From the human T2T-CHM13v2.0 reference genome, Homo sapiens, in assembly GCA_009914755.4 (NCBI GenBank), contig CP086569.2, forward strand, positions 12,352,001-12,416,000: a stretch of 64,000 nt of DNA, read 5' to 3'. Positions 821-64,000 of this stretch are shown here, one piece after another. Made by a program: the position numbers and the translations under genes. Below the pieces are notes generated by a model. That model was given only the letters and a program-made list of their open reading frames with translations. It made no database searches and was not told the DNA's origin. Numbering within the stretch: position 1 is the first letter of the stretch; every line of letters starts with the position of its first letter.

Positions 821-865
821 AATGGAATGGAATGGAATGGAATGGAATGGAATGGAATGGAATGG
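821..865. repeat. Example of a pure (AATGG)9 tract; its length varies between HOR copies (10 copies at 8321-8370)
   Basis: Direct reading of the sequence. The flanks 'aatggaaatg' and 'acacacatgtaatgg' are conserved, and only the pentamer count changes. Confidence 0.85.
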
Positions 866-40200: not shown

Positions 40201-43200
40201 TGATTGGAATGGGATGGGCCCAAAAGTAATGGACTCAAATAAAAGGGACTCAAATAGAATGAATTGGAAAGAAACGGTCTCGAATGTAATTCATTCGAAT
40301 GGAATGATATTGAATGGAATGCAATAGTATGGAATGGTATCGAATAGAATGGAATAGAATGGAATGGAATGGAACGGAATGGAGTGCATTTGAACGGACT
40401 CAAATGCAATAAATTGCAATATAATTGATTCAAATGGAATGGAATCGAATACAATGTAAACAAACGGAATGGAAGGCAATGCAATGGCAAGGAATCGAAT
40501 GAAATGGAATAAATGGAATGGAATCGAATGGAAAGGACGCGAATATAATGGACTGTTAAGGAAAGGTCTCGAATCGAATTTATTCCAATAGAATGGAATC
40601 GAAAGGAATGCAATACTATTGAATCGAATCGAATGGAATGGAATTCAATGGAATGGACAGGAATGGAATGAACTGGAAGTGAATGGACAAGAACGTAATA
40701 TATTCCAATGTAATGTATTCAAATGGAATGGAATGCAATCGAATGGAATTGACTCGATTGGAATGGACTGGAGTGGAATGGACTCAAATGGAATGTATTC
40801 GAATGTAATGGACCTGAAAGGAATGGAATCCAATGGAATGGAATTGAATGGAATCAAAAGGAATAGAATGGAATAGAGTGTCATTGAATGATATCGAATG
40901 GAAGGGAATGGAATGAAATCGAATGGAATGCACTGGAATGGAATGGACTCGATCAGAACGGACTGTAGCGGCATGTACACAAATGAAATGGAAACGAATG
41001 GAATGGAATGAAATGGAATGAAATGGAATTGAAAGGAACGGAATGGAATGGAATGGAATGGAATGGATTGGAATAGAATGGATTCAAATAAAATAGAATC
41101 GATTGGAATGGTATTGAATGGAGGGGAATTGAATGGAATGGAAAGCAATGGAAGATATTGGAATCGAATGGCATCGAATGAAATGGAATGGAACGGAATG
41201 GAACGGACCCGAATGGAATGGAATGGACTCAAATGTAATGGACTCGAAAGGAATCGAATGAAATATAATAGACTCGAAAAGAATGGCCTCCAGCGGAATT
41301 TATTTGAATAGAATGGAATGAAATGGAATACAATAGTATTGAATGGAACAGAATGGAATGGAATCGAATGGAATGTAATCAAATGGAATGGAACGGAATT
41401 CAATATAATGGAATAGAATGGAATGCATTGGAAAGGAGCAGAGTGGAATCGAGTGGAATGGAATCGAAAGGAATGGAATCAAAGGGAAAGAAATGGAATT
41501 GAATGGACTTGAATGGAATTGAGTCGAAAGGAATTGACTCGAAAGGAATGGACTGGAACAAAAAGGAATCAAATGGACAGGAATGGAATGGAATGGAATG
41601 GAATGGACTGGAATAGAATGGAGTCAAATGCAAACGCATCGAATGGAATGGATTGAAATGGAATGCAATTGAATGGAATGGAAAGGAAGAGAATGGAATT
41701 GAGAGTAATGGAAAGATATGGATTGGAATGAAATGGAATGGAAAGGAATTGAATGTTAAGGAATGGACTCGGAAGAAATGGATTGGAATTTAATGGTCTC
41801 CAATGGAATGGACTGGAGTGGAACGGAATCGAATGGAATGAAAAGAATGGAACGGAATGGAACGGAAAGGAATAGAATGTTATGGAATCCGATTGGACAG
41901 AATGGAATGGAATGGAGTTTCATGAAATGGAGTCGAATAGAGTGGCATCAAAAGGAATGTAATGGAACGGAGTGGACTCCAAAGGAATGGACTCGAAAGG
42001 AATGGAGACGAACCAAATTGAATCCAATGGATTGGAGTCGAACAGAATGGAATGGAATGGAATGAACTCGACTGGAGTGGAGAGGAATGTAAAGGAATAG
42101 AATGGAATGTAATCAAATGGATTGCAACTGAATGGAATCAAAAATAATAGAAAGGAATGGAGTGTAAAGGGATGATATTGAATATAATGGAATGGAATGG
42201 AATTCAATGGAATGGAGTCGAAGGAATGGACAGGAATGTAATGGACTCTAATGGAATGGAATGGATGAAAATGGATTTGAACAGATTGGAATCGAACGGA
42301 ATGGAATGCAATGGAATGGAATGGATTCGAATGGAGAAGAGACAAATGGAATGGAAACGAATTCAATGGAATTGAAAAGAATAGAATGGAATGGCGTGTA
42401 ATGGTAAGATACTAAATGGAATGGAATGGAATGGAATGGAATGGATTGGAATGGACCCAAATGTAATGCCCTCGAATGGAATATACTCAAATAGAATGGA
42501 ATCGAAAGGAAAGGTCTCAAATGGAATTTATTCAATACAATGGAATCGAATGGAATGCAATAGAATGGAATGGAATCGAATGTAATGGAATCAAATAGAA
42601 TGGACCAGAATGGAATGGACTGCCATAGAACGGAATGCAGTGTAATGGATTGAATTCTAATTCATTCAAATGGAATGGAATTGAATGGAATGGAATCCAA
42701 TGGAATGGATAGGATTGTACTGGATTGGAATAGCATGGAATGCAACGGAGTGGAATGGAGTTGAATGAAGTGGAATGGAATCGATTGGAATAGAATCAAA
42801 TGGAATGGACGGGAATGGAATGGACTGGAAGAGAACAGACTCGAATATAATGGATTGCAATGTAATTGATTCAAATGGAATGGAATCGAATGGAATGTAA
42901 TAAAATTGAAGGGATTGGAGTTCAATGCAAAGGAAAAGAATGGAATGCAAAGGAATGGAAAGGAATGGAGTGAAATCGAGTGTAATGGAATCGAATGGAA
43001 TGAAATCGAATGGAATGGACTCAAAAGAAATGGACGAGGGACAAAACTGAATCGAACTGATTGGAATGGAACGGAACGGAATGGAATGGAATGGTCTCCA
43101 TTGGATCGGAGTAGAACGGATTGGAATGGAATGGAATGAAATGGAATGGAAAGGAATAGAATGGAATGGAATGGAATGGAATGGAAGGTAATGGAAAGAT

Positions 43201-44748
43201 AACGAACGGATTGGAAAGGAATGCAATGGACCCTAATGGAATGGAATGGAATGGAACAGAAACCGATGGAATGGACTGGAGTGAAATGGAGTCGAATGTA
43301 ATTGACTGGAGTGGAATGGACTCGAAAGGAATGGACTCGAATAGAATGGACTGGAATGGATTGTGTTCGAATGGAGTGGAAAGGAATAAAATGGATTCCA
43401 CCAGATTGGAATGGAACAGAATGGAATGGAATGGAATGGAATGCAATGGAACGGCTTGACTGGAATGGAGTCGAATGCAATGGAATAGAAAGGAAAGGAA
43501 TTGAATGGAATTGAAAGTAATAGATTTAAATGGAGTGCAAAGGAAAGATGTCGAATGGAATGGATCGAAAAGAAATAGAATGGAATGGACAGGAATGGAA
43601 TGGAATAGAATGGAATAGACTGGCGTGCAATGAAAACGAATGGAATGGAATGGAAAGGAATGGAGTAGAATAAATACTATGGAATGGAATGGAATGGAGG
43701 CGAAAGGAAAAGAATGGATTGGAATGTCACCGAATGGAAAGATAAGGAATGGAAAGGAGTGGATACGAATGGAATGGAATAGAAAGGAACGGAAAGGTAA
43801 AGAATGGAATGGAATCGGATAGAATGGAATGCAATGTAATGGAGTCGAATGGAAAATAATCGAGTAGAATGATATTGAATGGAATGGAATTTAATGGAAT
43901 GGAATGGAATGGAATGGACTCGAATGGAATGTACTCAAATGGATTAGAATAGAATGGAATGGAACTAAACGTAATGAACTCGAATGGAATGGACACAAAT
44001 AGAATGGAAGAGAAAGGAATGGTATTGAATGGAATTTATTCGAATAGAATGTAATTCAATGGAATGCAACAGTGTGGCATGAAATCAAATGGAATGGAAT
44101 CGAATGGAATGGACCCGAGTGGAATGGACTCACATAGAACAGCCTGGAATGTAATGGATGACAGTGTATTAGATTCGAAGGGACTGAAATCGAATGGAAT
44201 GTAATCAAATAGAACGGAATTGAATGCATGGAATGGCATAGAAAGTAATGCAATGGAATGGAATAGACTGGAATGGAATGGAATCGGATGGAATGTAATG
44301 AAATGTAATGGAAGGAATGCCATGGAATGGAATGGAATGGAATGCAATGGCCCGGTGTATAATGGAGTGCAATGGAATTCAGTGGAATGTAGTCAACAGG
44401 AATGAAATAGAATGGAATTCAATATAAGGGAATGGCATCCAATGGCAGGGAATGGCATCCAATGGCAAGGAATGGAGTGGACTCCAATGGAAACAACATG
44501 AAAGGAATATAATATAATGGAATGGCATTGAACGATATGGAATGCAATGGAGTTAAAAGGTAAGATATCAAATGGAAAAGAATTGAATGGACTCGAATGG
44601 AATATAACGGAATGGAATGGACTCGAATGGAATGTACTAGAGTTGAATGGAATGGAATGGAATGGAAAACAATGGAAAGGAAAGGAAGGGAATTGAAAGG
44701 AAAGGAATAGAATGGAATGGAATCGGATAGAACGGAATTGAATGGAAT
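37238..44748. repeat. HOR long unit L6 (7511 bp), variant set B
   Basis: Full set of long-unit landmarks, including the 3.6 kb block absent from the short units (tagcggcatgtacac at ~40965, gaatggcctccagcgg at ~41282, ccatagaacggaatgcagtg at ~42620). Confidence 0.85.
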
Positions 44749-47700
44749 GGAAACTAAAGGAATAGCATAGAAAGGAATGGCATTGAATGGAATGGAATGG
44801 AATGGAATCAGATGGAACAGAAAGGAATGGAATAGAATCGAATGGTATGGCATCGAATGGATTGGAATGGAATGTAATGGAATGGAAAGGAATGGAATGG
44901 ACTCGAATGGAATGTACTCAAATGGAATAGAATAGAATGGAATGGAAGTAAATATAATGGACTCGAATGGAATGGATTGGAATAAATTGGAATTGAATGT
45001 ATTGGATTCGAATGGAAAGGAATGGAATGGAATGGAATGGATTCGAATGGAATGGAATCGAATGGAATGGAACGAATTGGAATGTAATTGAATGGCGTCG
45101 AAAACAGTAGAAAGAAATGAAGTTTAATCGAATGATATCGAATGGAATTGAATGGAATGTACGCGAATGGAATGGACTGGAATGGAATGGACTCTATGGG
45201 AATGAAGAGGAGTGGAATGGACTCGAATGTCATGGAGACGATTGGAATGGAAGGGAATGCAAAGGAATGGAATGGAATGGAATCTGATGCATCGCAATGG
45301 AATGGAATGGGGTCGAATGGCATAGAATCGAAAGGAATGGCATCCAATGGAATGGAAACGAATTGAATGGAATGGCATGGAATGGAATGGAAAGGAATAT
45401 AATGGAAAGGAATCGGATGGAACGGAATGGAATGTAATGGAGTCGAATGGAATAGAATCTAATAGAATTGCATTGATAGGAATGGAATCGAACGGACTCG
45501 AAAGGATTGGAGCCTAACAGAAGAGAATCGAACAGAATAGCATCAAATGGAATGGAAATGAATGGAATGGAATGGAATGGAATGGAATGGAATGGAATGG
45601 AATGGAATGGACACACATGTAATGGAGTTGAATGGAATGGAATCAAATAGAATGGACGCGAATGGAATGGTCTCGAATGGAATTTATGAAAATAGAATGG
45701 AATCGAAAGTCATTGAACATTATGGAATGGAATCAAATGGAATGAAATCGAATGGAAGGAACCGGAATGGAATGTACTGGAATAGAACGGACTCGAGTGT
45801 TACGGAAAGAAAAGTAAGTGATTCGGATGTCTTTTAATTGAATGGAATGAAATCAAATGGAATGGAAAGGAATAAAATGGAATGGAATAAAATAGAATGC
45901 AATAGAATGGAAGTGAGTGGAGTCGAGTTGAATGGAATCGAATTGAATGGAATAGAATGGAATAGAATCAAATGGAATGGACTCGAATGCAATGGAACCG
46001 AATGGAATGGACTGGAACATAATGGAATCGAACGTATTGGAATGGAAAGGAATGGAAAGGAATTGAATGCAACGGAAAGCAATGGAATCGAATGTAATGG
46101 AGTCGTATGTAGTGGAGTCGAATGGAATGGAATCAAATGGAAGGAAAAGAATACAATCGAATGGAATAGAATAGAATGCAACAGAATGAAACGGAGTGGA
46201 ATCGAGTGGAATGGAATAGAATTGAATGGAATGGAAAGGAATGGAATCGAATGGAATGGATCCGAATGGAATGGATCCGAATGGAATGGAATGGAACAAA
46301 ATGGAATTGAACAGATTAGAATCGAATGGATCCGAATCGAATGGAATGGAATATAATGGAATGGAATGGAATGGAATGGAATGGAATGGAATGGACCCAA
46401 AGGTAATGAACTCTAATGAAATGGACTTTAATAGAATGGATTAGAAAACAATGGGCTCGAATGGAATTTAATCAAGTCGAATTTAATGGAATGGAATGGA
46501 ATGCAAAACTATGGAATAGCATCAAATGGAATGGAACAGAATAGAGTGGAATGGAATGGAATACACAGGAATAGAACAGACTCGAATGTAATGGATTGCA
46601 ATGTAAGTGATTCAAAGGGAATGGAATCAAATGGAATATAATCAAATGGAATGGAATGGAGTGCATTGGAATGGAATAAAATGGAATGCAAACAATGTTA
46701 CAGAACTCATTTGAATCTAGAGGAATGGAATCGAATGCAATGGGAAAGAATGGAATGGACACGAATGGAATGGATTGGAAACAAATGGAATGGAAAGGAT
46801 TTTAATCATACAGAACAAAATAGAATGCAATGGACTCGAATGAAATGGAGTCGAAGAGAATAGTATCAAATGGAAAGGAATGGAATGCAATCGAATCGAA
46901 TGGAATGTTAATGAAATTAATTGAAAGGAATAGAATGGAATGAAGTGTAATGGAAAGATATCGAATTGAATGGAATTGAATGGAATGGACACAAACGGAA
47001 TGGACTGGAATGGAATGAACTGGAAAGGAATGGAATGGAGCGGAACGGACTCGAGTGCAATGGAATCGAATGGTATAGAATAGAATGGAATGGAATGGAA
47101 AGGAATAGAAGGGAATGGAATCGGATCCAACGGGACAGATTGGAATGGGGTAGAATTGAATAGAATCGAATGGAATGGCATCGAATGTAATGGAATGGAA
47201 TGGACTCGAATGGAATGGAGTGACATGTAATGGAATCGAAAGGAATGGAATCGAATGAAATGGAATTGAATGGAATAGAAAGGAATAGAATGGAATGGAG
47301 TTTAATGGAAAGATATTAAAAGTAATGGAATGGAATTGAGTGGACACGAATGGAATGGACTGGAATGGAAAGGACTCGAATGAAATGGAGCGCATTAGAA
47401 TGGACTCGAATGGAATGGATTGGAGTGGAATGGTCTCGAATGGATTGGAAACGAATGGAATGGAAAGGAGTAGAATGGAATGTAATCAAATGGAACGAAA
47501 TGGAATGGAATGGATTCGACTGGAACAGAATTGAATGGAGTGGAATTGATTGGAATGGAATGCAATCGAATGGAATGAACACGAATGGAATAGAATGAAA
47601 TGAAATGGCATAGAATGGAATGGAATGGAATGGAATGGAATGGAATGGAATGGAATGGAATGGAATGGCATGGCATGGAACGTGATGGAATGGAATGAAA

Positions 47701-48624
47701 TTGATTGGAATGGGATGGGCCCAAAAGTAAAGGACTCAAATAAAAGGGACTCAAATAGAATGAATTGGAAAGAAACGGTCTCGAATGTAATTCATTCGAA
47801 TGGAATGATATTGAATGGAATGCAATAGTATGGAATGGTATCGAATAGAATGGAATAGAATGGAATGGAATGGAACGGAATGGAGTGCATTTGAACGGAC
47901 TCAAATGCAATAAATTGCAATATAATTGATTCAAATGGAATGGAATCGAATAGAATGTAAACAAACGGAATGGAAGGCAATGCAATGGAAAGGAATCGAA
48001 TGAAATGGACCCGAGTGGAATGGACTCACATAGAACAGCCTTGAATGTAATGGATGACAATGTATTAGATTCGAAAGGACTGAAATCGAATGGAATGTAA
48101 TCAAATAGAACGGAATTGAATGCATGGAATGGCATAGAAAGTAATGCAATGGAATGGAATAGACTGGAATGGAATGGAATCGGATGGAATGTAATGAAAT
48201 GTAATGGAAGGAATGCCATGGAATGGAATGGAATGGAATGCAATGGGCCGGTGTATAATGGAGTGCAATGGAATTCAGTGGAATGTAGTCAATAGGAATG
48301 AAATAGAATGGAATTCAATATAAGGGAATGGCATCCAATGGCAAGGAATGGAGTGGACTCCAATGGAAACAACATGAAAGGAATATAATATAATGGAATG
48401 GCATTGAACGAAATGGAAAGCAATGGAGTTAAAAGGTAAGATATCGAATGGAAAAGAATTGAATGGACTCGAATGGAATATAACGGAATGGAATGGACTC
48501 GAATGGAATGTACTAGAGTTGAATGGAATCGAATGGAATGGAAAACAGTGGAAAGGAAAGGAAGGGAATTGAAAGGAAAGGAATAGAATGGAATGGAATC
48601 GGATAGAATGGAATTGAATGGAAT
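44749..48624. repeat. HOR short unit S1 (3876 bp), hybrid long-type 5' / short-type 3'
   Basis: The 5' ~2.65 kb carries long B-type variants ('ggaatataatgg', 'caatgggaaagaatgg', 'ggatccgaatggaatggatccgaatgg'). From ~47455 it carries short-type variants ('ggaatggaaaggagtagaatgg', 'ggcatggcatggaacgtgatgg', 'aaaagtaaaggactc'). The deletion junction 'aatcgaatgaaatgg|acccgagtgg' is at 48008/48009. Confidence 0.8.
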
Positions 48625-51600
48625 GGAAACTAAAGGAATAGAATAGAAAGGAATGGCATTGAATGGAATGGAATGGAATGGAATCAGATGGAACAGAAAG
48701 GAATGGAATAGAATCGAATGGTATGGCATCGAATGGATTGGAATGGAAAGGAATGGAATGAACTCGAATGGAATGTACTCAAATGGAATAGAATAGAATG
48801 GAATGGAAGTAAATATAATGGACTCGAATGGAATGGATTGGAATAAATTGGAATTGAATGTATTGGATTCGATTGGAAAGGAATGGAATGGAATGGAATG
48901 GATTCGAATGGAATGGAATCGAATGGAATGGAACGAATTGGAATGTAATTGAATGGCGTCGAAAACAGTAGAAAGAAATGAAGTTTAATCGAATGATATC
49001 GAATGGAATTGAATGGAATGTACGCGAATGGAATGGACTGGAATGGAATGGACTCTATGGGAATGAAGAGGAGTGGAGTGGACTCGAATGTCATGGAGAC
49101 GATTGGAATGGAAAGGAATGCAAAGGAATGGAATGGAATGGAATCTGATGCATCGCAATGGAATGGAATGGGGTCGAATGGAATAGAATCGAAAGGAATG
49201 GCATCCAATGGAATGGAAACGAATTGAATGGAATGGCATGGAATGGAATGGAAAGGAATATAATGGAAAGGAATCGGATGGAACGGAATGGAATGGAATG
49301 GAGTCGAATGGAATAGAATCTAATAGAATTGCATTGATAGGAATGGAATCGAACAGACTCGAAAGGATTGGAGCCTAACAGAAGAGAATCGAACAGAATA
49401 GCATCAAATGGAATGGAAATGAATGGAATGGAATGGAATGGAATGGAATGGAATGGAATGGAATGGACACACATGTAATGGACTTGAATGGAATGGAATC
49501 AAATAGAATGGACGCGAATGGAATGGTCTCGAATGGAATTTATGAAAATAGAATGGAATCGAAATTCATTGAACATTATGGAATGGAATCAAATGGAATG
49601 AAATCGAATGGAAGGAACCGGAATGGAATGTACTGGAATAGAACGGACTCGAATGTTACGGAAAGAAAAGTAAGTGATTCGGATGTCTTTTAATTGAATG
49701 GAATGAAATCAAATGGAATGGAAAGGAATAAAATGGAATGGAATGAAATAGAATGCAATAGAATGGAAGGGAGTGGAGTCGAGTTGAATGGAATCGAATT
49801 GAATGGAATAGAATGGAATAGAATCAAATGGAATGGATTCGAATGCAATGGAACCGAATGGAATGGACTGGAACATAATGGAATCGAAAGGAATGGAAAG
49901 GAATTGAATGCAATGGAAAGCAATGGAATCGAATGTAATGGAGTCGTATGTAGTGGAGTCGAATGGAATGGAATCAAATGGAAGGAAAAGAATACAATCG
50001 AATGGAATAGAATAGAATACAACAGAATGAAACGGAGTGGAATCGAGTGGGATGGAATAGAATTCAATGGAATGGAAAGGAATGGAATCGAATGGAATGG
50101 AATCGAATGGAATGGAACCGAACAAAATGGAATTGAACAGATTAGAATCGAATGGATCCGAATCGAATGGAATGGAGTATAAGGGAATGGAATGGAATGG
50201 AATGGACCCAAATGTCATGAACTCTAATGAAATGGACTTTAATAGAATGGATTAGAAAACAATGGGCTCGAATGGAATTTAATCAAGTCGAATTTAATGG
50301 AATGGAATGGAATGCAAAACTATGGAATAGCATCAAATGGAATGGAACAGAATAGAGTGGAATGGAATGGAATACACAGGTATAGAACAGACTCGAATGT
50401 AATGGATTGCAATGTAAGTGATTCAAAGGGAATGGAATCAAATGGAATATAATCAAATGGAATGGAATGGAGTGCATTGGAATGGAATAAAATGGAATGC
50501 AAACAATGGTACAGAACTCATTTGAATGTAGAGGAATGGAATCGAATGCAATGGAAAAGAATGGAATGGACACGAATGGAATGGATTGGAAACAAATGGA
50601 ATGGAAAGGATTTTAATCATACAGAACAAAATAGAATGCAATGGACTCGAATGAAATGGAGTCGAAGAGAATAGTATCAAATGGAAAGGAATGGAATGCA
50701 ATCGAATCGAATGGAATGTTAATGAAATTAATTGAAAGGAATAGAATGGAATGAAGTGTAACGGAAAGATATCGAATTGAATGGAATTGAATGGAATGGA
50801 CACAAACGGAATGGACTGGAATGGAATGAACTGGAAAGGAATGGAATGGAGCGGAACGGACTCGAGTGCAATGGAATCGAATGGTATAGAATAGAATGGA
50901 ATGGAATGGAAAGGAATAGAAGGGAATGGAATCGGATCCAACGGGACAGATTGGAATGGGGTAGAATTGAATAGAATCGAATGGAATGGCATCGAATGTA
51001 ATGGAATGGAATGGACTCGAATGGAATGGAGTGACATGTAATGGAATCGAAAGGAATGGAATCGAATGAAATGGAATTGAATGGAATAGAAAGGAATAGA
51101 ATGGAATGGAGTTTAATGGAAAGATATTAAAAGTAATGGAATGGAATTGAGTGGACACGAATGGAATGGACTGGAATGGAAAGGACTCGAATGAAATGGA
51201 GCGCATTAGAATGGACTCGAATGGAATGGATTGGAGTGGAATGGTCTCGAATGGATTGGAAACGAATGGAATGGAAAGGAGTAGAATGGAATGTAATCAA
51301 ATGGAACGAAATGGAATGGAATGGATTCGACTGGAACAGAATTGAATGGAGTGGAATTGATTGGAATGGAATGCAATCGAATGGAATGAACACGAATGGA
51401 ATAGAATGAAATGAAATGGCATAGAATGGAATGGAATGGAATGGAATGGAATGGAATGGAATGGAATGGAATGGAATGGCATGGCATGGAACGTGATGGA
51501 ATGGAATGAAATTGATTGGAATGGGATGGGCCCAAAAGTAAAGGACTCAAATAAAAGGGACTCAAATAGAATGAATTGGAAAGAAACGGTCTCGAATGTA

Positions 51601-52435
51601 ATTCATTCGAATGGAATGATATTGAATGGAATGCAATAGTATGGAATGGTATCGAATAGAATGGAATAGAATGGAATGGAATGGAACGGAATGGAGTGCA
51701 TTTGAACGGACTCAAATGCAATAAATTGCAATATAATTGATTCAAATGGAATGGAATCGAATAGAATGTAAACAAACGGAATGGAAGGCAATGCAATGGA
51801 AAGGAATCGAATGAAATGGACCCGAGTGGAATGGACTCACATAGAACAGCCTTGAATGTAATGGATGACAATGTATTAGATTCGAAAGGACTGAAATCGA
51901 ATGGAATGTAATCAAATAGAACGGAATTGAATGCATGGAATGGCATAGAAAGTAATGCAATGGAATGGAATAGACTGGAATGGAATGGAATCGGATGGAA
52001 TGTAATGAAATGTAATGGAAGGAATGCCATGGAATGGAATGGAATGGAATGCAATGGGCCGGTGTATAATGGAGTGCAATGGAATTCAGTGGAATGTAGT
52101 CAATAGGAATGAAATAGAATGGAATTCAATATAAGGGAATGGCATCCAATGGCAAGGAATGGAGTGGACTCCAATGGAAACAACATGAAAGGAATATAAT
52201 ATAATGGAATGGCATTGAACGAAATGGAAAGCAATGGAGTTAAAAGGTAAGATATCGAATGGAAAAGAATTGAATGGACTCGAATGGAATATAACGGAAT
52301 GGAATGGACTCGAATGGAATGTACTAGAGTTGAATGGAATCGAATGGAATGGAAAACAGTGGAAAGGAAAGGAAGGGAATTGAAAGGAAAGGAATAGAAT
52401 GGAATGGAATCGGATAGAATGGAATTGAATGGAAT
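48625..52435. repeat. HOR short unit S2 (3811 bp)
   Basis: Landmarks: 'aactaaaggaatagaatagaaagg' (versus long 'gcatagaaagg'), gatgtcttttaattg at 49681, 'gtacagaactcatttgaatgtagagg' at ~50510, gggcccaaaagtaaagg at ~51527, and junction 'atgaaatgg|acccgagtgg' at 51819/51820. It lacks the tagcggcatg, ggcctccagcgg and gaattctaattc landmarks. Confidence 0.87.
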
Positions 52436-55400
52436 GGAAACTAAAGGAATAGAATAGAAAGGAATGGCATTGAATGGAATGGAATGGAATGGAATCAGAT
52501 GGAACAGAAAGGAATGGAATAGAATCGAATGGTATGGCATCGAATGGATTGGAATGGAAAGGAATGGAATGAACTCGAATGGAATGTACTCAAATGGAAT
52601 AGAATAGAATGGAATGGAAGTAAATATAATGGACTCGAATGGAATGGATTGGAATAAATTGGAATTGAATGTATTGGATTCGATTGGAAAGGAATGGAAT
52701 GGAATGGAATGGATTCGAATGGAATGGAATCGAATGGAATGGAACGAATTGGAATGTAATTGAATGGCGTCGAAAACAGTAGAAAGAAATGAAGTTTAAT
52801 CGAATGATATCGAATGGAATTGAATGGAATGTACGCGAATGGAATGGACTGGAATGGAATGGACTCTATGGGAATGAAGAGGAGTGGAGTGGACTCGAAT
52901 GTCATGGAGACGATTGGAATGGAAAGGAATGCAAAGGAATGGAATGGAATGGAATCTGATGCATCGCAATGGAATGGAATGGGGTCGAATGGAATAGAAT
53001 CGAAAGGAATGGCATCCAATGGAATGGAAACGAATTGAATGGAATGGCATGGAATGGAATGGAAAGGAATATAATGGAAAGGAATCGGATGGAACGGAAT
53101 GGAATGGAATGGAGTCGAATGGAATAGAATCTAATAGAATTGCATTGATAGGAATGGAATCGAACGGACTCGAAAGGATTGGAGCCTAACAGAAGAGAAT
53201 CGAACAGAATAGCATCAAATGGAATGGAAATGAATGGAATGGAATGGAATGGAATGGAATGGAATGGAATGGAATGGACACACATGTAATGGACTTGAAT
53301 GGAATGGAATCAAATAGAATGGACGCGAATGGAATGGTCTCGAATGGAATTTATGAAAATAGAATGGAATCGAAATTCATTGAACATTATGGAATGGAAT
53401 CAAATGGAATGAAATCGAATGGAAGGAACCGGAATGGAATGTACTGGAATAGAACGGACTCGAATGTTACGGAAAGAAAAGTAAGTGATTCGGATGTCTT
53501 TTAATTGAATGGAATGAAATCAAATGGAATGGAAAGGAATAAAATGGAATGGAATGAAATAGAATGCAATAGAATGGAAGGGAGTGGAGTCGAGTTGAAT
53601 GGAATCGAATTGAATGGAATAGAATGGAATAGAATCAAATGGAATGGATTCGAATGCAATGGAACCGAATGGAATGGACTGGAACATAATGGAATCGAAA
53701 GGAATGGAAAGGAATTGAATGCAATGGAAAGCAATGGAATCGAATGTAATGGAGTCGTATGTAGTGGAGTCGAATGGAATGGAATCAAATGGAAGGAAAA
53801 GAATAAAATCGAATGGAATAGAATAGAATACAACAGAATGAAACGGAGTGGAATCGAGTGGGATGGAATAGAATTCAATGGAATGGAAAGGAATGGAATC
53901 GAATGGAATGGAATCGAATGGAATGGAACCGAACAAAATGGAATTGAACAGATTAGAATCGAATGGATCCGAATCGAATGGAATGGAATATAAGGGAATG
54001 GAATGGAATGGAATGGACCCAAATGTAATGAACTCTAATGAAATGGACTTTAATAGAATGGATTAGAAAACAATGGGCTCGAATGGAATTTAATCAAGTC
54101 GAATTTAATGGAATGGAATGGAATGCAAAACTATGGAATAGCATCAAATGGAATGGAACAGAATAGAGTGGAATGGAATGGAATACACAGGTATAGAACA
54201 GACTCGAATGTAATGGATTGCAATGTAAGTGATTCAAAGGGAATGGAATCAAATGGAATATAATCAAATGGAATGGAATGGAGTGCATTGGAATGGAATA
54301 AAATGGAATGCAAACAATGGTACAGAACTCATTTGAATGTAGAGGAATGGAATCGAATGCAATGGAAAAGAATGGAATGGACACGAATGGAATGGATTGG
54401 AAACAAATGGAATGGAAAGGATTTTAATCATACAGAACAAAATAGAATGCAATGGACTCGAATGAAATGGAGTCGAAGAGAATAGTATCAAATGGAAAGG
54501 AATGGAATGCAATCGAATCGAATGGAATGTTAATGAAATTAATTGAAAGGAATAGAATGGAATGAAGTGTAACGGAAAGATATCGAATTGAATGGAATTG
54601 AATGGAATGGACACAAACGGAATGGACTGGAATGGAATGAACTCGAAAGGAATGGAATGGAGCGGAACGGACTCGAGTGCAATGGAATCGAATGGTATAG
54701 AATAGAATGGAATGGAATGGAAAGGAATAGAAGGGAATGGAATCGGATCCAACGGGACAGATTGGAATGGGGTAGAATTGAATAGAATCGAATGGAATGG
54801 CATCGAATGTAATGGAATGGAATGGACTCGAATGGAATGGAGTGACATGTAATGGAATCGAAAGGAATGGAATCGAATGAAATGGAATTGAATGGAATAG
54901 AAAGGAATAGAATGGAATGGAGTTTAATGGAAAGATATTAAAAGTAATGGAATGGAATTGAGTGGACACGAATGGAATGGACTGGAATGGAAAGGACTCG
55001 AATGAAATGGAGCGCATTAGAATGGACTCGAATGGAATGGATTGGAGTGGAATGGTCTCGAATGGATTGGAAACGAATGGAATGGAAAGGAGTAGAATGG
55101 AATGTAATCAAATGGAACGAAATGGAATGGAATGGATTCGACTGGAACAGAATTGAATGGAGTGGAATTGATTGGAATGGAATGCAATCGAATGGAATGA
55201 ACACGAATGGAATAGAATGAAATGAAATGGCATAGAATGGAATGGAATGGAATGGAATGGAATGGAATGGAATGGAATGGAATGGAATGGAATGGCATGG
55301 AACGTGATGGAATGGAATGAAATTGATTGGAATGGGATGGGCCCAAAAGTAAAGGACTCAAATAAAAGGGACTCAAATAGAATGAATTGGAAAGAAACGG

Positions 55401-56246
55401 TCTCGAATGTAATTCATTCGAATGGAATGATATTGAATGGAATGCAATAGTATGGAATGGTATCGAATAGAATGGAATAGAATGGAATGGAATGGAACGG
55501 AATGGAGTGCATTTGAACGGACTCAAATGCAATAAATTGCAATATAATTGATTCAAATGGAATGGAATCGAATAGAATGTAAACAAACGGAATGGAAGGC
55601 AATGCAATGGAAAGGAATCGAATGAAATGGACCCGAGTGGAATGGACTCACATAGAACAGCCTTGAATGTAATGGATGACAATGTATTAGATTCGAAAGG
55701 ACTGAAATCGAATGGAATGTAATCAAATAGAACGGAATTGAATGCATGGAATGGCATAGAAAGTAATGCAATGGAATGGAATAGACTGGAATGGAATGGA
55801 ATCGGATGGAATGTAATGAAATGTAATGGAAGGAATGCCATGGAATGGAATGGAATGGAATGCAATGGGCCGGTGTATAATGGAGTGCAATGGAATTCAG
55901 TGGAATGTAGTCAATAGGAATGAAATAGAATGGAATTCAATATAAGGGAATGGCATCCAATGGCAAGGAATGGAGTGGACTCCAATGGAAACAACATGAA
56001 AGGAATATAATATAATGGAATGGCATTGAACGAAATGGAAAGCAATGGAGTTAAAAGGTAAGATATCGAATGGAAAAGAATTGAATGGACTCGAATGGAA
56101 TATAACGGAATGGAATGGACTCGAATGGAATGTACTAGAGTTGAATGGAATCGAATGGAATGGAAAACAGTGGAAAGGAAAGGAAGGGAATTGAAAGGAA
56201 AGGAATAGAATGGAATGGAATCGGATAGAATGGAATTGAATGGAAT
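52436..56246. repeat. HOR short unit S3 (3811 bp)
   Basis: Near-identical to S2, including identical ORF translations. The junction is at 55630/55631. Confidence 0.87.
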
Positions 56247-59200
56247 GGAAACTAAAGGAATAGAATAGAAAGGAATGGCATTGAATGGAATGGAATGGAA
56301 TGGAATCAGATGGAACAGAAAGGAATGGAATAGAATCGAATGGTATGGCATCGAATGGATTGGAATGGAAAGGAATGGAATGAACTCGAATGGAATGTAC
56401 TCAAATGGAATAGAATAGAATGGAATGGAAGTAAATATAATGGACTCGAATGGAATGGATTGGAATAAATTGGAATTGAATGTATTGGATTCGATTGGAA
56501 AGGAATGGAATGGAATGGAATGGATTCGAATGGAATGGAATCGAATGGAATGGAACGAATTGGAATGTAATTGAATGGCGTCGAAAACAGTAGAAAGAAA
56601 TGAAGTTTAATCGAATGATATCGAATGGAATTGAATGGAATGTACGCGAATGGAATGGACTGGAATGGAATGGACTCTATGGGAATGAAGAGGAGTGGAG
56701 TGGACTCGAATGTCATGGAGACGATTGGAATGGAAAGGAATGCAAAGGAATGGAATGGAATGGAATCTGATGCATCGCAATGGAATGGAATGGGGTCGAA
56801 TGGAATAGAATCGAAAGGAATGGCATCCAATGGAATGGAAACGAATTGAATGGAATGGCATGGAATGGAATGGAAAGGAATATAATGGAAAGGAATCGGA
56901 TGGAACGGAATGGAATGGAATGGAGTCGAATGGAATAGAATCTAATAGAATTGCATTGATAGGAATGGAATCGAACGGACTCGAAAGGATTGGAGCCTAA
57001 CAGAAGAGAATCGAACAGAATAGCATCAAATGGAATGGAAATGAATGGAATGGAATGGAATGGAATGGAATGGAATGGAATGGAATGGACACACATGTAA
57101 TGGACTTGAATGGAATGGAATCAAATAGAATGGACGCGAATGGAATGGTCTCGAATGGAATTTATGAAAATAGAATGGAATCGAAATTCATTGAACATTA
57201 TGGAATGGAATCAAATGGAATGAAATCGAATGGAAGGAACCGGAATGGAATGTACTGGAATAGAACGGACTCGAATGTTACGGAAAGAAAAGTAAGTGAT
57301 TCGGATGTCTTTTAATTGAATGGAATGAAATCAAATGGAATGGAAAGGAATAAAATGGAATGGAATGAAATAGAATGCAATAGAATGGAAGGGAGTGGAG
57401 TCGAGTTGAATGGAATCGAATTGAATGGAATAGAATGGAATAGAATCAAATGGAATGGATTCGAATGCAATGGAACCGAATGGAATGGACTGGAACATAA
57501 TGGAATCGAAAGGAATGGAAAGGAATTGAATGCAATGGAAAGCAATGGAATCGAATGTAATGGAGTCGTATGTAGTGGAGTCGAATGGAATGGAATCAAA
57601 TGGAAGGAAAAGAATACAATCGAATGGAATAGAATAGAATACAACAGAATGAAACGGAGTGGAATCGAGTGGGATGGAATAGAATTCAATGGAATGGAAA
57701 GGAATGGAATCGAATGGAATGGAATCGAATGGAATGGAACCGAACAAAATGGAATTGAACAGATTAGAATCGAATGGATCCGAATCGAATGGAATGGAAT
57801 ATAAGGGAATGGAATGGAATGGAATGGACCCAAATGTCATGAACTCTAATGAAATGGACTTTAATAGAATGGATTAGAAAACAATGGGCTCGAATGGAAT
57901 TTAATCAAGTCGAATTTAATGGAATGGAATGGAATGCAAAACTATGGAATAGCATCAAATGGAATGGAACAGAATAGAGTGGAATGGAATGGAATACACA
58001 GGTATAGAACAGACTCGAATGTAATGGATTGCAATGTAAGTGATTCAAAGGGAATGGAATCAAATGGAATATAATCAAATGGAATGGAATGGAGTGCATT
58101 GGAATGGAATAAAATGGAATGCAAACAATGGTACAGAACTCATTTGAATGTAGAGGAATGGAATCGAATGCAATGGAAAAGAATGGAATGGACACGAATG
58201 GAATGGATTGGAAACAAATGGAATGGAAAGGATTTTAATCATACAGAACAAAATAGAATGCAATGGACTCGAATGAAATGGAGTCGAAGAGAATAGTATC
58301 AAATGGAAAGGAATGGAATGCAATCGAATCGAATGGAATGTTAATGAAATTAATTGAAAGGAATAGAATGGAATGAAGTGTAACGGAAAGATATCGAATT
58401 GAATGGAATTGAATGGAATGGACACAAACGGAATGGACTGGAATGGAATGAACTCGAAAGGAATGGAATGGAGCGGAACGGACTCGAGTGCAATGGAATC
58501 GAATGGTATAGAATAGAATGGAATGGAATGGAAAGGAATAGAAGGGAATGGAATCGGATCCAACGGGACAGATTGGAATGGGGTAGAATTGAATAGAATC
58601 GAATGGAATGGCATCGAATGTAATGGAATGGAATGGACTCGAATGGAATGGAGTGACATGTAATGGAATCGAAAGGAATGGAATCGAATGAAATGGAATT
58701 GAATGGAATAGAAAGGAATAGAATGGAATGGAGTTTAATGGAAAGATATTAAAAGTAATGGAATGGAATTGAGTGGACACGAATGGAATGGACTGGAATG
58801 GAAAGGACTCGAATGAAATGGAGCGCATTAGAATGGACTCGAATGGAATGGATTGGAGTGGAATGGTCTCGAATGGATTGGAAACGAATGGAATGGAAAG
58901 GAGTAGAATGGAATGTAATCAAATGGAACGAAATGGAATGGAATGGATTCGACTGGAACAGAATTGAATGGAGTGGAATTGATTGGAATGGAATGCAATC
59001 GAATGGAATGAACACGAATGGAATAGAATGAAATGAAATGGCATAGAATGGAATGGAATGGAATGGAATGGAATGGAATGGAATGGAATGGAATGGAATG
59101 GCATGGCATGGAACGTGATGGAATGGAATGAAATTGATTGGAATGGGATGGGCCCAAAAGTAAAGGACTCAAATAAAAGGGACTCAAATAGAATGAATTG

Positions 59201-60057
59201 GAAAGAAACGGTCTCGAATGTAATTCATTCGAATGGAATGATATTGAATGGAATGCAATAGTATGGAATGGTATCGAATAGAATGGAATAGAATGGAATG
59301 GAATGGAACGGAATGGAGTGCATTTGAACGGACTCAAATGCAATAAATTGCAATATAATTGATTCAAATGGAATGGAATCGAATAGAATGTAAACAAACG
59401 GAATGGAAGGCAATGCAATGGAAAGGAATCGAATGAAATGGACCCGAGTGGAATGGACTCACATAGAACAGCCTTGAATGTAATGGATGACAATGTATTA
59501 GATTCGAAAGGACTGAAATCGAATGGAATGTAATCAAATAGAACGGAATTGAATGCATGGAATGGCATAGAAAGTAATGCAATGGAATGGAATAGACTGG
59601 AATGGAATGGAATCGGATGGAATGTAATGAAATGTAATGGAAGGAATGCCATGGAATGGAATGGAATGGAATGCAATGGGCCGGTGTATAATGGAGTGCA
59701 ATGGAATTCAGTGGAATGTAGTCAATAGGAATGAAATAGAATGGAATTCAATATAAGGGAATGGCATCCAATGGCAAGGAATGGAGTGGACTCCAATGGA
59801 AACAACATGAAAGGAATATAATATAATGGAATGGCATTGAACGAAATGGAAAGCAATGGAGTTAAAAGGTAAGATATCGAATGGAAAAGAATTGAATGGA
59901 CTCGAATGGAATATAACGGAATGGAATGGACTCGAATGGAATGTACTAGAGTTGAATGGAATCGAATGGAATGGAAAACAGTGGAAAGGAAAGGAAGGGA
60001 ATTGAAAGGAAAGGAATAGAATGGAATGGAATCGGATAGAATGGAATTGAATGGAAT
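56247..60057. repeat. HOR short unit S4 (3811 bp)
   Basis: Near-identical to S2 and S3. The junction is at 59441/59442. Confidence 0.87.
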
Positions 60058-63000
60058 GGAAACTAAAGGAATAGAATAGAAAGGAATGGCATTGAATGGA
60101 ATGGAATGGAATGGAATCAGATGGAACAGAAAGGAATGGAATAGAATCGAATGGTATGGCATCGAATGGATTGGAATGGAAAGGAATGGAATGAACTCGA
60201 ATGGAATGTACTCAAATGGAATAGAATAGAATGGAATGGAAGTAAATATAATGGACTCGAATGGAATGGATTGGAATAAATTGGAATTGAATGTATTGGA
60301 TTCGATTGGAAAGGAATGGAATGGAATGGAATGGATTCGAATGGAATGGAATCGAATGGAATGGAACGAATTGGAATGTAATTGAATGGCGTCGAAAACA
60401 GTAGAAAGAAATGAAGTTTAATCGAATGATATCGAATGGAATTGAATGGAATGTACGCGAATGGAATGGACTGGAATGGAATGGACTCTATGGGAATGAA
60501 GAGGAGTGGAGTGGACTGGAATGTCATGGAGACGATTGGAATGGAAAGGAATGCAAAGGAATGGAATGGAATGGAATCTGATGCATCGCAATGGAATGGA
60601 ATGGGGTCGAATGGAATAGAATCGAAAGGAATGGCATCCAATGGAATGGAAACGAATTGAATGGAATGGCATGGAATGGAATGGAAAGGAATATAATGGA
60701 AAGGAATCGGATGGAACGGAATGGAATGGAATGGAGTCGAATGGAATAGAATCTAATAGAATTGCATTGATAGGAATGGAATCGAACGGACTCGAAAGGA
60801 TTGGAGCCTAACAGAAGAGAATCGAACAGAATAGCATCAAATGGAATGGAAATGAATGGAATGGAATGGAATGGAATGGAATGGAATGGAATGGAATGGA
60901 CACACATGTAATGGACTTGAATGGAATGGAATCAAATAGAATGGACGCGAATGGAATGGTCTCGAATGGAATTTATGAAAATAGAATGGAATCGAAATTC
61001 ATTGAACATTATGGAATGGAATCAAATGGAATGAAATCGAATGGAAGGAACCGGAATGGAATGTACTGGAATAGAACGGACTCGAATGTTACGGAAAGAA
61101 AAGTAAGTGATTCGGATGTCTTTTAATTGAATGGAATGAAATCAAATGGAATGGAAAGGAATAAAATGGAATGGAATGAAATAGAATGCAATAGAATGGA
61201 AGGGAGTGGAGTCGAGTTGAATGGAATCGAATTGAATGGAATAGAATGGAATAGAATCAAATGGAATGGATTCGAATGCAATGGAACCGAATGGAATGGA
61301 CTGGAACATAATGGAATCGAAAGGAATGGAAAGGAATTGAATGCAATGGAAAGCAATGGAATCGAATGTAATGGAGTCGTATGTAGTGGAGTCGAATGGA
61401 ATGGAATCAAATGGAAGGAAAAGAATACAATCGAATGGAATAGAATAGAATACAACAGAATGAAACGGAGTGGAATCGAGTGGGATGGAATAGAATTCAA
61501 TGGAATGGAAAGGAATGGAATCGAATGGAATGGAATCGAATGGAATGGAACCGAACAAAATGGAATTGAACAGATTAGAATCGAATGGATCCGAATCGAA
61601 TGGAATGGAATATAAGGGAATGGAATGGAATGGAATGGACCCAAATGTAATGAACTCTAATGAAATGGACTTTAATAGAATGGATTAGAAAACAATGGGC
61701 TCGAATGGAATTTAATCAAGTCGAATTTAATGGAATGGAATGGAATGCAAAACTATGGAATAGCATCAAATGGAATGGAACAGAATAGAGTGGAATGGAA
61801 TGGAATACACAGGTATAGAACAGACTCGAATGTAATGGATTGCAATGTAAGTGATTCAAAGGGAATGGAATCAAATGGAATATAATCAAATGGAATGGAA
61901 TGGAGTGCATTGGAATGGAATAAAATGGAATGCAAACAATGGTACAGAACTCATTTGAATCTAGAGGAATGGAATCGAATGCAATGGAAAAGAATGGAAT
62001 GGACACGAATGGAATGGATTGGAAACAAATGGAATGGAAAGGATTTTAATCATACAGAACAAAATAGAATGCAATGGACTCGAATGAAATGGAGTCGAAG
62101 AGAATAGTATCAAATGGAAAGGAATGGAATGCAATCGAATCGAATGGAATGTTAATGAAATTAATTGAAAGGAATAGAATGGAATGAAGTGTAACGGAAA
62201 GATATCGAATTGAATGGAATTGAATGGAATGGACACAAACGGAATGGACTGGAATGGAATGAACTGGAAAGGAATGGAATGGAGCGGAACGGACTCGAGT
62301 GCAATGGAATCGAATGGTATAGAATAGAATGGAATGGAATGGAAAGGAATAGAAGGGAATGGAATCGGATCCAACGGGACAGATTGGAATGGGGTAGAAT
62401 TGAATAGAATCGAATGGAATGGCATCGAATGTAATGGAATGGAATGGACTCGAATGGAATGGAGTGACATGTAATGGAATCGAAAGGAATGGAATCGAAT
62501 GAAATGGAATTGAATGGAATAGAAAGGAATAGAATGGAATGGAGTTTAATGGAAAGATATTAAAAGTAATGGAATGGAATTGAGTGGACACGAATGGAAT
62601 GGACTGGAATGGAAAGGACTCGAATGAAATGGAGCGCATTAGAATGGACTCGAATGGAATGGATTGGAGTGGAATGGTCTCGAATGGATTGGAAACGAAT
62701 GGAATGGAAAGGAGTAGAATGGAATGTAATCAAATGGAACGAAATGGAATGGAATGGATTCGACTGGAACAGAATTGAATGGAGTGGAATTGATTGGAAT
62801 GGAATGCAATCGAATGGAATGAACACGAATGGAATAGAATGAAATGAAATGGCATAGAATGGAATGGAATGGAATGGAATGGAATGGAATGGAATGGAAT
62901 GGAATGGAATGGAATGGAATGGAATGGCATGGCATGGAACGTGATGGAATGGAATGAAATTGATTGGAATGGGATGGGCCCAAAAGTAAAGGACTCAAAT

Positions 63001-63883
63001 AAAAGGGACTCAAATAGAATGAATTGGAAAGAAACGGTCTCGAATGTAATTCATTCGAATGGAATGATATTGAATGGAATGCAATAGTATGGAATGGTAT
63101 CGAATAGAATGGAATAGAATGGAATGGAATGGAACGGAATGGAGTGCATTTGAACGGACTCAAATGCAATAAATTGCAATATAATTGATTCAAATGGAAT
63201 GGAATCGAATAGAATGTAAACAAACGGAATGGAAGGCAATGCAATGGAAAGGAATCGAATGAAATGGACCCGAGTGGAATGGACTCACATAGAACAGCCT
63301 TGAATGTAATGGATGACAATGTATTAGATTCGAAAGGACTGAAATCGAATGGAATGTAATCAAATAGAACGGAATTGAATGCATGGAATGGCATAGAAAG
63401 TAATGCAATGGAATGGAATAGACTGGAATGGAATGGAATCGGATGGAATGTAATGAAATGTAATGGAAGGAATGCCATGGAATGGAATGGAATGGAATGC
63501 AATGGGCCGGTGTATAATGGAGTGCAATGGAATTCAGTGGAATGTAGTCAATAGGAATGAAATAGAATGGAATTCAATATAAGGGAATGGCATCCAATGG
63601 CAAGGAATGGAGTGGACTCCAATGGAAACAACATGAAAGGAATATAATATAATGGAATGGCATTGAACGAAATGGAAAGCAATGGAGTTAAAAGGTAAGA
63701 TATCGAATGGAAAAGAATTGAATGGACTCGAATGGAATATAACGGAATGGAATGGACTCGAATGGAATGTACTAGAGTTGAATGGAATCGAATGGAATGG
63801 AAAACAGTGGAAAGGAAAGGAAGGGAATTGAAAGGAAAGGAATAGAATGGAATGGAATCGGATAGAATGGAATTGAATGGAAT
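60058..63883. repeat. HOR short unit S5 (3826 bp)
   Basis: Near-identical to S2-S4. Three extra AATGG pentamers in the pure tract at ~62870-62930 explain the +15 bp. The junction is at 63267/63268. Confidence 0.85.
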
Positions 63884-64000
63884 GGAAACTAAAGGAATAG
63901 AATAGAAAGGAATGGCATTGAATGGAATGGAATGGAATGGAATCAGATGGAACAGAAAGGAATGGAATAGAATCGAATGGTATGGCATCGAATGGATTGG
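63884..64000. repeat. Start of a further short-type HOR copy (partial)
   Basis: The landmark 'ggaaactaaaggaatagaatagaaagg' restarts at 63884 in the short-type form. Confidence 0.75.

What the first reader, a model, noticed from the sequence alone, without database searches (positions are those of the whole stretch)
44749..64000. Abrupt switch to a ~3.8 kb HOR that equals the long HOR minus one internal 3.6 kb block
From 44749 the period drops to 3876, 3811, 3811, 3811 and 3826 bp. The short units retain the long-unit landmarks for offsets ~0-3260 and ~6873-7510. They lack everything between, and the junction reads 'ggaatcgaatgaaatgg|acccgagtgg'. Both breakpoints sit in near-identical 'gaatcgaatgRaatgg' context, so the event looks like homology-mediated intra-array deletion. 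The converse, insertion or duplication creating the long form, is equally possible. The short units also carry their own fixed point variants (gcatag to gaatag, ctagagg to gtagagg, gtaatggactc to gtaaaggactc, ggcaagg to ggaaagg), so the two HOR forms have diverged since the event.
Basis: seen in the sequence. Interest (0 to 1): 0.6.

Follow-up and report, generated by a model that had tools for sequence, protein, structure and literature searches.

The report
Short deletion form of a satellite repeat
A human GGAAT-type satellite array switches from 7.5 kb repeat units to 3.8 kb units that lack one internal 3.6 kb block; this is a real but ordinary, old and widely shared length variant of the repeat, not a fresh local event.

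Summary
Six ~7.5 kb units (9-44748) are followed by five full ~3.8 kb units plus a sixth cut by the window end. Each short unit equals a long unit minus one 3,605-3,615 bp block, with the same junction every time (GGAATCGAATGAAATGGA|CCCGAGTGG).

The interpretation needs four corrections.
- **Polarity is not "equally possible".** Deletion is strongly favoured. The block is not a copy of retained sequence. It is present and colinear in diverged long-form relatives from other human samples, and the short form nests within that long-form diversity.
- **The deletion did not happen at this boundary.** The identical junction occurs in 4 of 15 independent human-associated metagenome contigs.
- **The long-type/short-type switch is not at 44749.** It lies inside the first short unit, at 46952-47462, about 550-1,050 bp before the first junction. 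That marks an exchange in shared sequence.
- **Most "short-specific" variants are the family-wide state.** The window's long units carry most of the derived changes.

The breakpoint homology is short: 6 bp exact, or 18 bp with one mismatch. The only subfamily marker that matches is HSat3A3 (Y-specific). Variation in unit length along HSat3 arrays is already published. Interest is low.

The parts
9..44748 (+). Six long units: L1 9-7508, L2 7509-15023, L3 15024-22524, L4 22525-30035, L5 30036-37237, L6 37238-44748. They are 7,500-7,515 bp, except L5 at 7,202 bp.
   Evidence: k-mer period and anchor map; MAFFT.
3264..6873 (+). The 3.6 kb block missing from the short units, shown here in L1. The same block lies at 10784-14388, 18275-21889, 25786-29400 and 40509-44113. 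In L5 it ends at 36602 and is truncated on the left by L5's own deletion.
   Evidence: Edge motifs located. Composition and pentamer content match the retained part, with no foreign insert. The block contains the HSat3A3 marker 24-mer at 4901.
3246..3263 (+). Left copy of the 18-bp direct repeat flanking the block: GGAATCGAATGAAATGGA.
6856..6873 (+). Right copy of the direct repeat: GGAATCGAATGGAATGGA, with one mismatch to the left copy.
44749..48624 (+). S1, the first short unit (3,876 bp), is a mosaic. It is long-type (closest to L5) up to 46951 and short-type from 47463.
   Evidence: 17/17 long-type then 16/16 short-type diagnostic sites, Fisher P about 9e-10. The 5' part is 2.4 substitutions/kb from L5 and 11-12/kb from S2-S5. 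The 3' part is 0-0.9/kb from S2-S5 and 15-18/kb from the long units.
46952..47462 (+). Interval containing the actual long-type/short-type exchange point: 511 bp with no diagnostic difference.
47992..48018 (+). First deletion junction, GGAATCGAATGAAATGGA|CCCGAGTGG. The break is 48009|48010 and could slide within AATGGA at 48004-48009. The same junction starts at 51803, 55614, 59425 and 63251.
   Evidence: Identical over at least 100 bp in contigs L005, L006, L008 and L011.
48625..64000 (+). Homogeneous short units: S2 48625-52435, S3 52436-56246, S4 56247-60057 (3,811 bp each), S5 60058-63883 (3,826 bp) and partial S6 63884-64000.
   Evidence: They differ by 0-2 substitutions/kb. S2, S3 and S5 carry private variants; S4 has none.
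33299..33307 (+). Junction of a separate 369-bp deletion private to L5 (unit offsets 3221-3590), in a 9-bp microhomology GGAATGGAA.
   Evidence: Absent from all 15 outside contigs.

Best explanation
The window is human satellite 3, most likely subfamily HSat3A3 from the pericentromeric Y chromosome. It is organised as kilobase-scale nested tandem repeats.

The 3.8 kb unit is an old deletion derivative of a ~7.5 kb unit. A single event removed 3.6 kb between two 18-bp near-identical direct repeats and left one hybrid copy. The crossover fell in the last 6 bp, AATGGA. Candidate mechanisms are out-of-register exchange between sister chromatids or within one chromatid, single-strand annealing, microhomology-mediated end joining, or replication slippage.

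The deleted unit was then amplified into its own homogeneous tandem run by unequal exchange. It now exists in many human genomes.

In this window, a run of short units abuts a run of long units from a different, locally derived lineage. The two runs were joined by an in-register exchange in shared sequence at 46952-47462, inside what is now the first short unit.

Shown here: the single block, the junction, its presence in other samples, the mosaic unit, and the nesting of the short form within long-form diversity. Inferred: the molecular pathway, the amplification by unequal exchange, and the Y assignment.
For: - One gap per short unit, with an identical junction in five units.
- Direct repeats flank the block in the long units, and one hybrid copy remains in the short units. 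It carries the left copy's A, so the crossover was 3' of that base.
- Junction homology exceeds random pairs: P 0.006 at 1 mismatch and 0.047 exact.
- The block versus the retained part shows only 69-71% identity in every register, so the long unit is not a duplication of the short one.
- The same junction occurs in 4 of 15 independent metagenome contigs. The long left edge occurs in 7 and the long right edge in 11.
- The short unit is 3-5 substitutions/kb from outside long-form contig L013 in all three retained segments, against 12-31/kb from the window's long units.
- The block is colinear, at 18-38 substitutions/kb, between the window's long units and outside long forms.
- 21 of 33 diagnostic sites have the short allele as the majority in long-form contigs.
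- S1 is a mosaic, 17 long-type then 16 short-type sites.
- S2-S5 differ by 0-2/kb, and S2, S3 and S5 carry private variants (S4 has none).
- Only the HSat3A3 marker 24-mer hits, once per long unit (marker from PMC4022460 Table 1).
- Unequal exchange and sister-chromatid exchange in Y heterochromatin are reported in 10.1101/2022.12.01.518724.
Against: - The outside contigs are short-read metagenome assemblies of a collapsed multicopy repeat (coverage 3-22x). Their allele combinations may be graph-path mosaics rather than real single copies, so distances to them are approximate.
- Donors and haplogroups of those samples are unknown.
- The 18-bp motif occurs 11 times per long unit at 1 mismatch or fewer. 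Breakpoint homology is therefore partly a by-product of the pentamer repeat and does not identify a pathway.
- The subfamily and Y assignment rests on one marker 24-mer out of 6,554.
- The long/short boundary in this window has no independent read-level support here.
Confidence: 0.8

Rival explanations
1. Insertion or duplication polarity. The 3.8 kb unit is ancestral, and the 7.5 kb unit arose by gaining a 3.6 kb block, either by internal duplication or by import from another HSat3 array.
For: From one window alone the two polarities look symmetric. Direct repeats at the block edges are also compatible with a homology-guided insertion.
Against: - The block is not a copy of any retained part: 69-71% identity in all registers, which is background.
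- The flanks are about 98.6% identical between the two forms. A duplicated block could not have decayed to 70% in the same time.
- The block is present and colinear in every long-form lineage sampled.
- The short form nests inside long-form diversity rather than outside it.
Confidence: 0.05
2. Recent in-situ deletion at this boundary. One long unit in this array lost the block, and its descendants expanded rightwards and then accumulated their own mutations.
For: The short run sits directly next to the long run. The short units are very homogeneous, which suggests recent local expansion.
Against: - The identical junction occurs in 4 independent samples.
- The short units are 12-20 substitutions/kb from the adjacent long units but 3-5/kb from outside long forms.
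- The diagnostic differences are mostly derived in the long units.
- The first short unit switches type cleanly upstream of the junction. That is a recombinant pattern, not gradual divergence.
Confidence: 0.07
3. Assembly artefact. The long and short runs belong to different places or haplotypes and were falsely joined in the 511-bp stretch where they are identical. Alternatively, the short run is a collapsed loop.
For: The type switch lies exactly in a stretch with no distinguishing sites (46952-47462), which is where a false join would occur. No reads are available here.
Against: - The short form itself is real, since the junction occurs in 4 other assemblies.
- S2, S3 and S5 carry private substitutions and S5 a private 15-bp indel, so they are not a loop.
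- A 511-bp identical stretch is far shorter than modern long reads.
- Contig L005 also runs from block sequence through a unit into the short junction. That contig could itself be a graph path.
Confidence: 0.06

Closest known systems
Nested tandem repeats (NTRs) of human satellites 2 and 3, as defined by Altemose et al. (10.1101/2021.07.12.452052). Their Fig. S10 shows the predominant NTR length varying widely along the chr20 HSat3B3 array.
   Same: - Kilobase units built from diverged CATTC/GGAAT pentamers, repeated in tandem at high identity.
- Unit length changes from one local domain to the next within an array.
- Local expansion of variants.
   Different: The paper reports changes in periodicity from k-mer spacing spectra. 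It does not give the base-level event. Here the relation between two adjacent periods is resolved to one deletion with defined breakpoints and polarity.
Alpha-satellite HOR structural variants and HOR-haplotype domains (same paper, main text).
   Same: - Variant units that differ from the canonical unit by loss of an internal segment.
- Variants cluster in homogeneous local domains and are shared among individuals.
   Different: Alpha-satellite variants gain or lose whole 171-bp monomers by in-register exchange between paralogous monomers. Here there are no discrete monomers, and the exchange used only 6-18 bp of homology.
DYZ1 / HSat3A6, the ~3.6 kb HSat3 NTR of Yq12 (10.1101/2022.12.01.518724; PMC4022460).
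   Same: A Y-linked HSat3 with a multi-kilobase unit of similar size to the short form. It evolves by unequal exchange.
   Different: It is a different subfamily. The HSat3A6 marker 24-mer is absent from the window and only the HSat3A3 marker is present. The periods here are 7.5 and 3.81 kb, not 3.6 kb.
HSat3A3, the Y-specific subfamily with no published clone (PMC4022460). 94 kb of it is annotated in hg19 clone RP11-295P22, Y:13.54-13.75 Mb.
   Same: Its most common specific 24-mer occurs once per long unit and 13 times in the related contigs.
   Different: I found no unit length or structural variants for this subfamily in any searchable text.

Membership tests
Human satellite 3 (HSat3) | Derived from the (CATTC)n / (GGAAT)n pentamer, strongly strand-asymmetric. 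| tested here: met
   GGAAT occurs 3,967 times against ATTCC 12 times. 71% of 5-mers lie within 1 mismatch of a GGAAT rotation. TRF consensus units are GGAATGGAAT and GGAATGGAATCGAAT.
Human satellite 3 (HSat3) | Of human origin. | tested here: inconclusive
   15 related contigs were recovered from metagenome assemblies. One is explicitly a human skin metagenome. No human assembly was available to map against.
HSat3A3 subfamily (Y chromosome) | Carries subfamily-specific 24-mers (found in more than 1% of that subfamily's reads and under 0.1% of any other's). | tested here: met
   Of 14 subfamily marker 24-mers, only the HSat3A3 one matches: 6 times in the window and 13 times in the contigs. Only 1 of 6,554 markers could be tested, because the stored Dataset S2 is cut before 3A3.
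HSat3A3 subfamily (Y chromosome) | Maps to the pericentromeric Y chromosome. | not testable with these tools
   No human assembly is searchable here.
Nested tandem repeat (NTR) | Multi-kilobase unit composed of diverged short repeats, itself repeated head to tail at high identity. | tested here: met
   Units of 7.5 and 3.8 kb, with 98.6-100% identity between copies.
Higher-order repeat in the alpha-satellite sense | Unit made of a discrete number of monomers of similar length. | tested here: not met
   No period between 15 and 500 bp within a unit. No preferred internal register.
DYZ1 / HSat3A6 | HSat3A6-specific 24-mers and a ~3.6 kb period. | tested here: not met
   The marker is absent. The periods are 7.5 and 3.81 kb.
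D15Z1 (chromosome 15, 1.8 kb KpnI satellite III; recalled from memory) | KpnI periodicity and the HSat3A5 marker. | tested here: not met
   No GGTACC site in 64 kb, and the HSat3A5 marker is absent.

The most novel reading that the evidence does not exclude
Unit offsets ~3.2-3.7 kb of this repeat may be a recurrent breakage or exchange hotspot. Two independent deletions, the family-wide 3.6 kb one and L5's private 369 bp one, start within 33 bp of each other. Outside copies differ by a 110-bp indel and a 1,373-bp tandem duplication in the same neighbourhood. If that holds across many Y chromosomes, this array would be a natural system for studying sequence-specific instability in non-recombining satellite DNA. 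The 3.8 kb form could also serve as a dated structural marker on the Y phylogeny.
Probability: 0.15. Interest if true: 0.4.

Novelty: new member of a known kind. Interest (0 to 1): 0.2.

Why it matters
Its value is mainly as a worked example. It shows at base resolution how one HSat3 unit length turns into another:
- a single short-homology deletion;
- amplification of the deleted unit;
- later juxtaposition with another lineage by in-register exchange.

It also shows that the neighbouring long units are not the parents of the short ones. The junction string is a ready-made marker for counting the short form in Y-chromosome assemblies or short reads. It does not change the current understanding of satellite evolution.

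Tried and rejected
- **Ancient dimer.** I tested whether the long unit is an ancient dimer, which would make the deletion an in-register unequal exchange between two halves. There was no excess identity at shift ~3,610: ungapped 0.42-0.43 like its neighbours, gapped 70.6% against 69-70% elsewhere. Rejected.
- **MAFFT gap placement.** MAFFT put L5's 369-bp gap at the same column as the big gap. Base-level comparison shows it is 33 bp upstream, so that placement was an alignment artefact.
- **L011 as a closed 1,143-bp cycle.** Its terminal overlap is plain (GGAAT)n. Rejected.
- **Other collections.** The genome-contig scan found nothing.
- **Published unit lengths.** Searches for a published 7.5 or 3.8 kb HSat3, HSat3A3 or DYZ17 unit length found no text value. 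T2T-Y Extended Data Fig. 8a labels periodicities only in an image.
- **Full marker set.** Dataset S2 of PMC4022460 is stored truncated, before the 3A3 entries.
- **Other features.** Rfam had no hits. The ORFs are only pentamer read-through.
- **KpnI / D15Z1 idea.** There are no KpnI sites. Rejected.
Full report
**What the window is.** All 64 kb is GGAAT-type satellite with extreme strand asymmetry: GGAAT occurs 3,967 times and ATTCC 12 times. GC content (0.37-0.39) and skew are uniform. There is no Rfam family. The ORFs are only frame-readings of the pentamer. Within a unit, TRF finds only 10- and 15-bp pentamer-derived periods at about 65% matches.

**Check of the observation.** The distance from each 40-mer to its next copy is about 7,500 bp (7,167-7,556) up to about 40.3 kb. 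No 40-mer from 41-44 kb recurs downstream. From 44.4 kb the distance is 3,876/3,861, then 3,811, then 3,826 bp.

Mapping the window onto the first long unit with unique 22-mers gives these units:
- Long: L1 9-7508, L2 7509-15023, L3 15024-22524, L4 22525-30035, L5 30036-37237, L6 37238-44748.
- Short: S1 44749-48624, S2 48625-52435, S3 52436-56246, S4 56247-60057, S5 60058-63883, and a partial S6.

Every short unit shows the same single −3,610 jump, from unit offset ~3,233 to ~6,859. MAFFT and an affine-gap global alignment agree. There is one 3,610-bp gap (3,605 bp against L6). Apart from a 1-bp indel at unit offset 2375, all other gaps are 15- or 20-bp pentamer-multiple indels. Aligned parts are 98.6-99.1% identical. 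The junction is GGAATCGAATGAAATGGA|CCCGAGTGG at 48009|48010 and four further positions.

**The breakpoints.** In the long units the block is flanked by GGAATCGAATGAAATGGA on the left and GGAATCGAATGGAATGGA on the right. The short units keep one copy carrying the left copy's A, so the exchange fell in the last 6 bp, AATGGA. Against random position pairs in the unit, 6 bp of exact homology has P about 0.05, and 18 bp with one mismatch has P about 0.006. The motif occurs 11 times per unit at 1 mismatch or fewer. Outside those 18-27 bp the two flanks are no more alike than background. This is short-homology or microhomology scale. It does not identify a repair pathway.

**Is the long unit a dimer, or the block a duplication?** No. 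Ungapped identity at a shift of ~3,610 is 0.42-0.43, like neighbouring shifts. Gapped alignment of the block against the retained part gives 69-71% in every register. The block has the same base composition, pentamer content and CpG density as the retained part, and no foreign insert.

**Variants inside the window.** In the 5' shared part, S2-S5 differ from the long units by 10-15 substitutions/kb. In the 3' shared part all five short units differ from the long units by 15-18/kb. S2-S5 differ from one another by only 0-2/kb.

S1 is a mosaic. It carries the long-type allele at all 17 diagnostic sites up to window position 46951, and the short-type allele at all 16 from 47463 onward (Fisher P about 9e-10). 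It also lacks the three 15-bp deletions tested that S2-S5 carry in the 5' part, but shares their 20-bp difference in the 3' part. So the boundary between the two sequence types lies in the 511-bp interval 46952-47462, about 550-1,050 bp before the first junction. It has the signature of an exchange in shared sequence. S1's 5' part is closest to L5 (2.4/kb), not to the adjacent L6 (5.3/kb).

**Evidence from other samples.** A 31-mer immediately right of the junction, shared by both forms, was found in 15 metagenome contigs and in no bacterial or archaeal genome. One contig is labelled as a human skin metagenome. These are short-read assemblies of a collapsed multicopy repeat, so they should be read as family consensus paths rather than single copies.
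- Four contigs (L005, L006, L008, L011) carry the identical short junction over at least 100 bp. Eleven carry the long right edge and seven the long left edge.
- Several contigs are closed cycles: 7,571 bp (L001), 8,929 and 8,939 bp (L009, L014; these have an internal 1,373-bp tandem duplication plus 110 bp) and 5,564 bp (L010; it has a ~2 kb deletion elsewhere).

The family therefore exists in many length forms, and the short junction is neither private to this window nor an artefact of its assembly.

**Polarity.**
- At 21 of 33 sites that separate long from short units in the window, the 'short' allele is the majority among outside long-form contigs. The 'long' allele is the majority at 9 sites.
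- The short-type 15- and 20-bp indels are also present in long-form contig L009.
- S2's retained sequence is 3.6, 4.8 and 4.1 substitutions/kb from long-form contig L013 in its three segments. It is 12-31/kb from the window's own long units.
- The block is colinear, at 18-38 substitutions/kb, between the window's long units and the outside long forms.

So the short form nests within long-form diversity and is a long unit of the common haplotype minus the block, which means a deletion. The window's long units are a separate, locally derived lineage. For example, ggaaagg at offset 3234 is in all 11 informative outside contigs, and gaatag at offset 17 is in 9 of 10.

**Identity.** Of the 14 subfamily marker 24-mers in Table 1 of PMC4022460, only the HSat3A3 marker matches. 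It occurs once per long unit, inside the block, and 13 times in the contigs. That paper describes HSat3A3 as Y-specific, with no published clone. It annotates 94 kb of it in hg19 clone RP11-295P22 at Y:13.54-13.75 Mb. The assignment rests on one marker out of 6,554 and is provisional. There are no KpnI sites, and the HSat3A5 and HSat3A6 markers are absent, so this is neither D15Z1 nor DYZ1.

**What is already known.** Altemose et al. (10.1101/2021.07.12.452052) named such units nested tandem repeats. [quoted passage not shown] S10 shows wide variation in NTR length along the chr20 HSat3B3 array. The T2T-Y paper reports evolution by unequal exchange, and sister-chromatid exchanges, in Yq12 heterochromatin. 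Hallast et al. describe an HSat3 array (372-488 kb) and DYZ17 (0.86-1.74 Mb) next to the Y centromere. I found no text giving a 7.5 or 3.8 kb unit for this array.

**Most likely history.** Steps marked 'inferred' are not directly shown.
1. A long unit of the common haplotype lost 3.6 kb between two 18-bp direct repeats. The single origin is shown by the identical junction; the molecular pathway is inferred.
2. The deleted unit was amplified into tandem runs. The near-identity of S2-S5 is shown; unequal exchange as the cause is inferred.
3. Separately, a long-unit lineage accumulated about 20 substitutions and several pentamer-multiple insertions and was amplified locally. L1-L3 differ by 0.4-0.8/kb in the 5' shared part and by up to 3.4/kb in the block.
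4. An in-register exchange at 46952-47462 joined an L5-like long unit to a short unit. The mosaic is shown; the mechanism is inferred.

**Verdict.** The feature is real and accurately described, but it is an ordinary member of a known kind of satellite variation.

Noticed in passing
window 33299-33307 (L5, 30036-37237): L5 has a private 369-bp deletion (unit offsets 3221-3590) at a 9-bp microhomology GGAATGGAA. Its left edge is only 33 bp from the left edge of the 3.6 kb deletion, about a 1% coincidence under a uniform model. It is absent from all 15 outside contigs.
   Followed up: partly
window 22525-46951: There is a two-unit (~14.7 kb) super-repeat. L4 resembles L6 (2.4 substitutions/kb) and L5 resembles the 5' part of S1 (2.4/kb), whereas neighbours differ by 5-6/kb. 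Next-copy distances of 14,683-14,723 bp appear in this stretch.
   Followed up: partly
window 9-22524: L1-L3 are almost identical in the 5' shared part (0.4-0.8 substitutions/kb), whereas L4-L6 are 4-6/kb away from them there. In the 3' shared part L4 is within 0.8-1.7/kb of L1-L3. This suggests a very recent local triplication inside the long run.
   Followed up: no
L009 1-8985 and L014 1-8990 (also L004, L005, L012, L013, L015): Outside long-form contigs carry a junction from unit offset 5059 back to 3683. This is a 1,373-bp tandem duplication inside the block. With an extra 110 bp near offset 3530 it gives closed cycles of 8,929 and 8,939 bp. Neither feature is present in the window.
   Followed up: partly
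L002, L008, L010, L012: A recurrent ~2,022-bp deletion (unit offsets ~123-412 to ~2453-2461) occurs in four contigs. L010 closes as a 5,564-bp cycle. L008 combines this deletion with the 3.6 kb one, implying an even shorter unit of ~1.9 kb. These could be graph-path artefacts of short-read assembly.
   Followed up: no
window 4901, 12421, 19912, 27433, 34610, 42146: The most common HSat3A3-specific 24-mer lies inside the deleted block. The 3.8 kb units therefore lack it and would be under-counted by marker-based quantification that uses this k-mer.
   Followed up: partly
unit offset 2375 (e.g. window 17405, 24906, 47130): A 1-bp indel breaks the pentamer phase. L1 and L2 are one base shorter here than L3-L6 and all the short units.
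   Followed up: no
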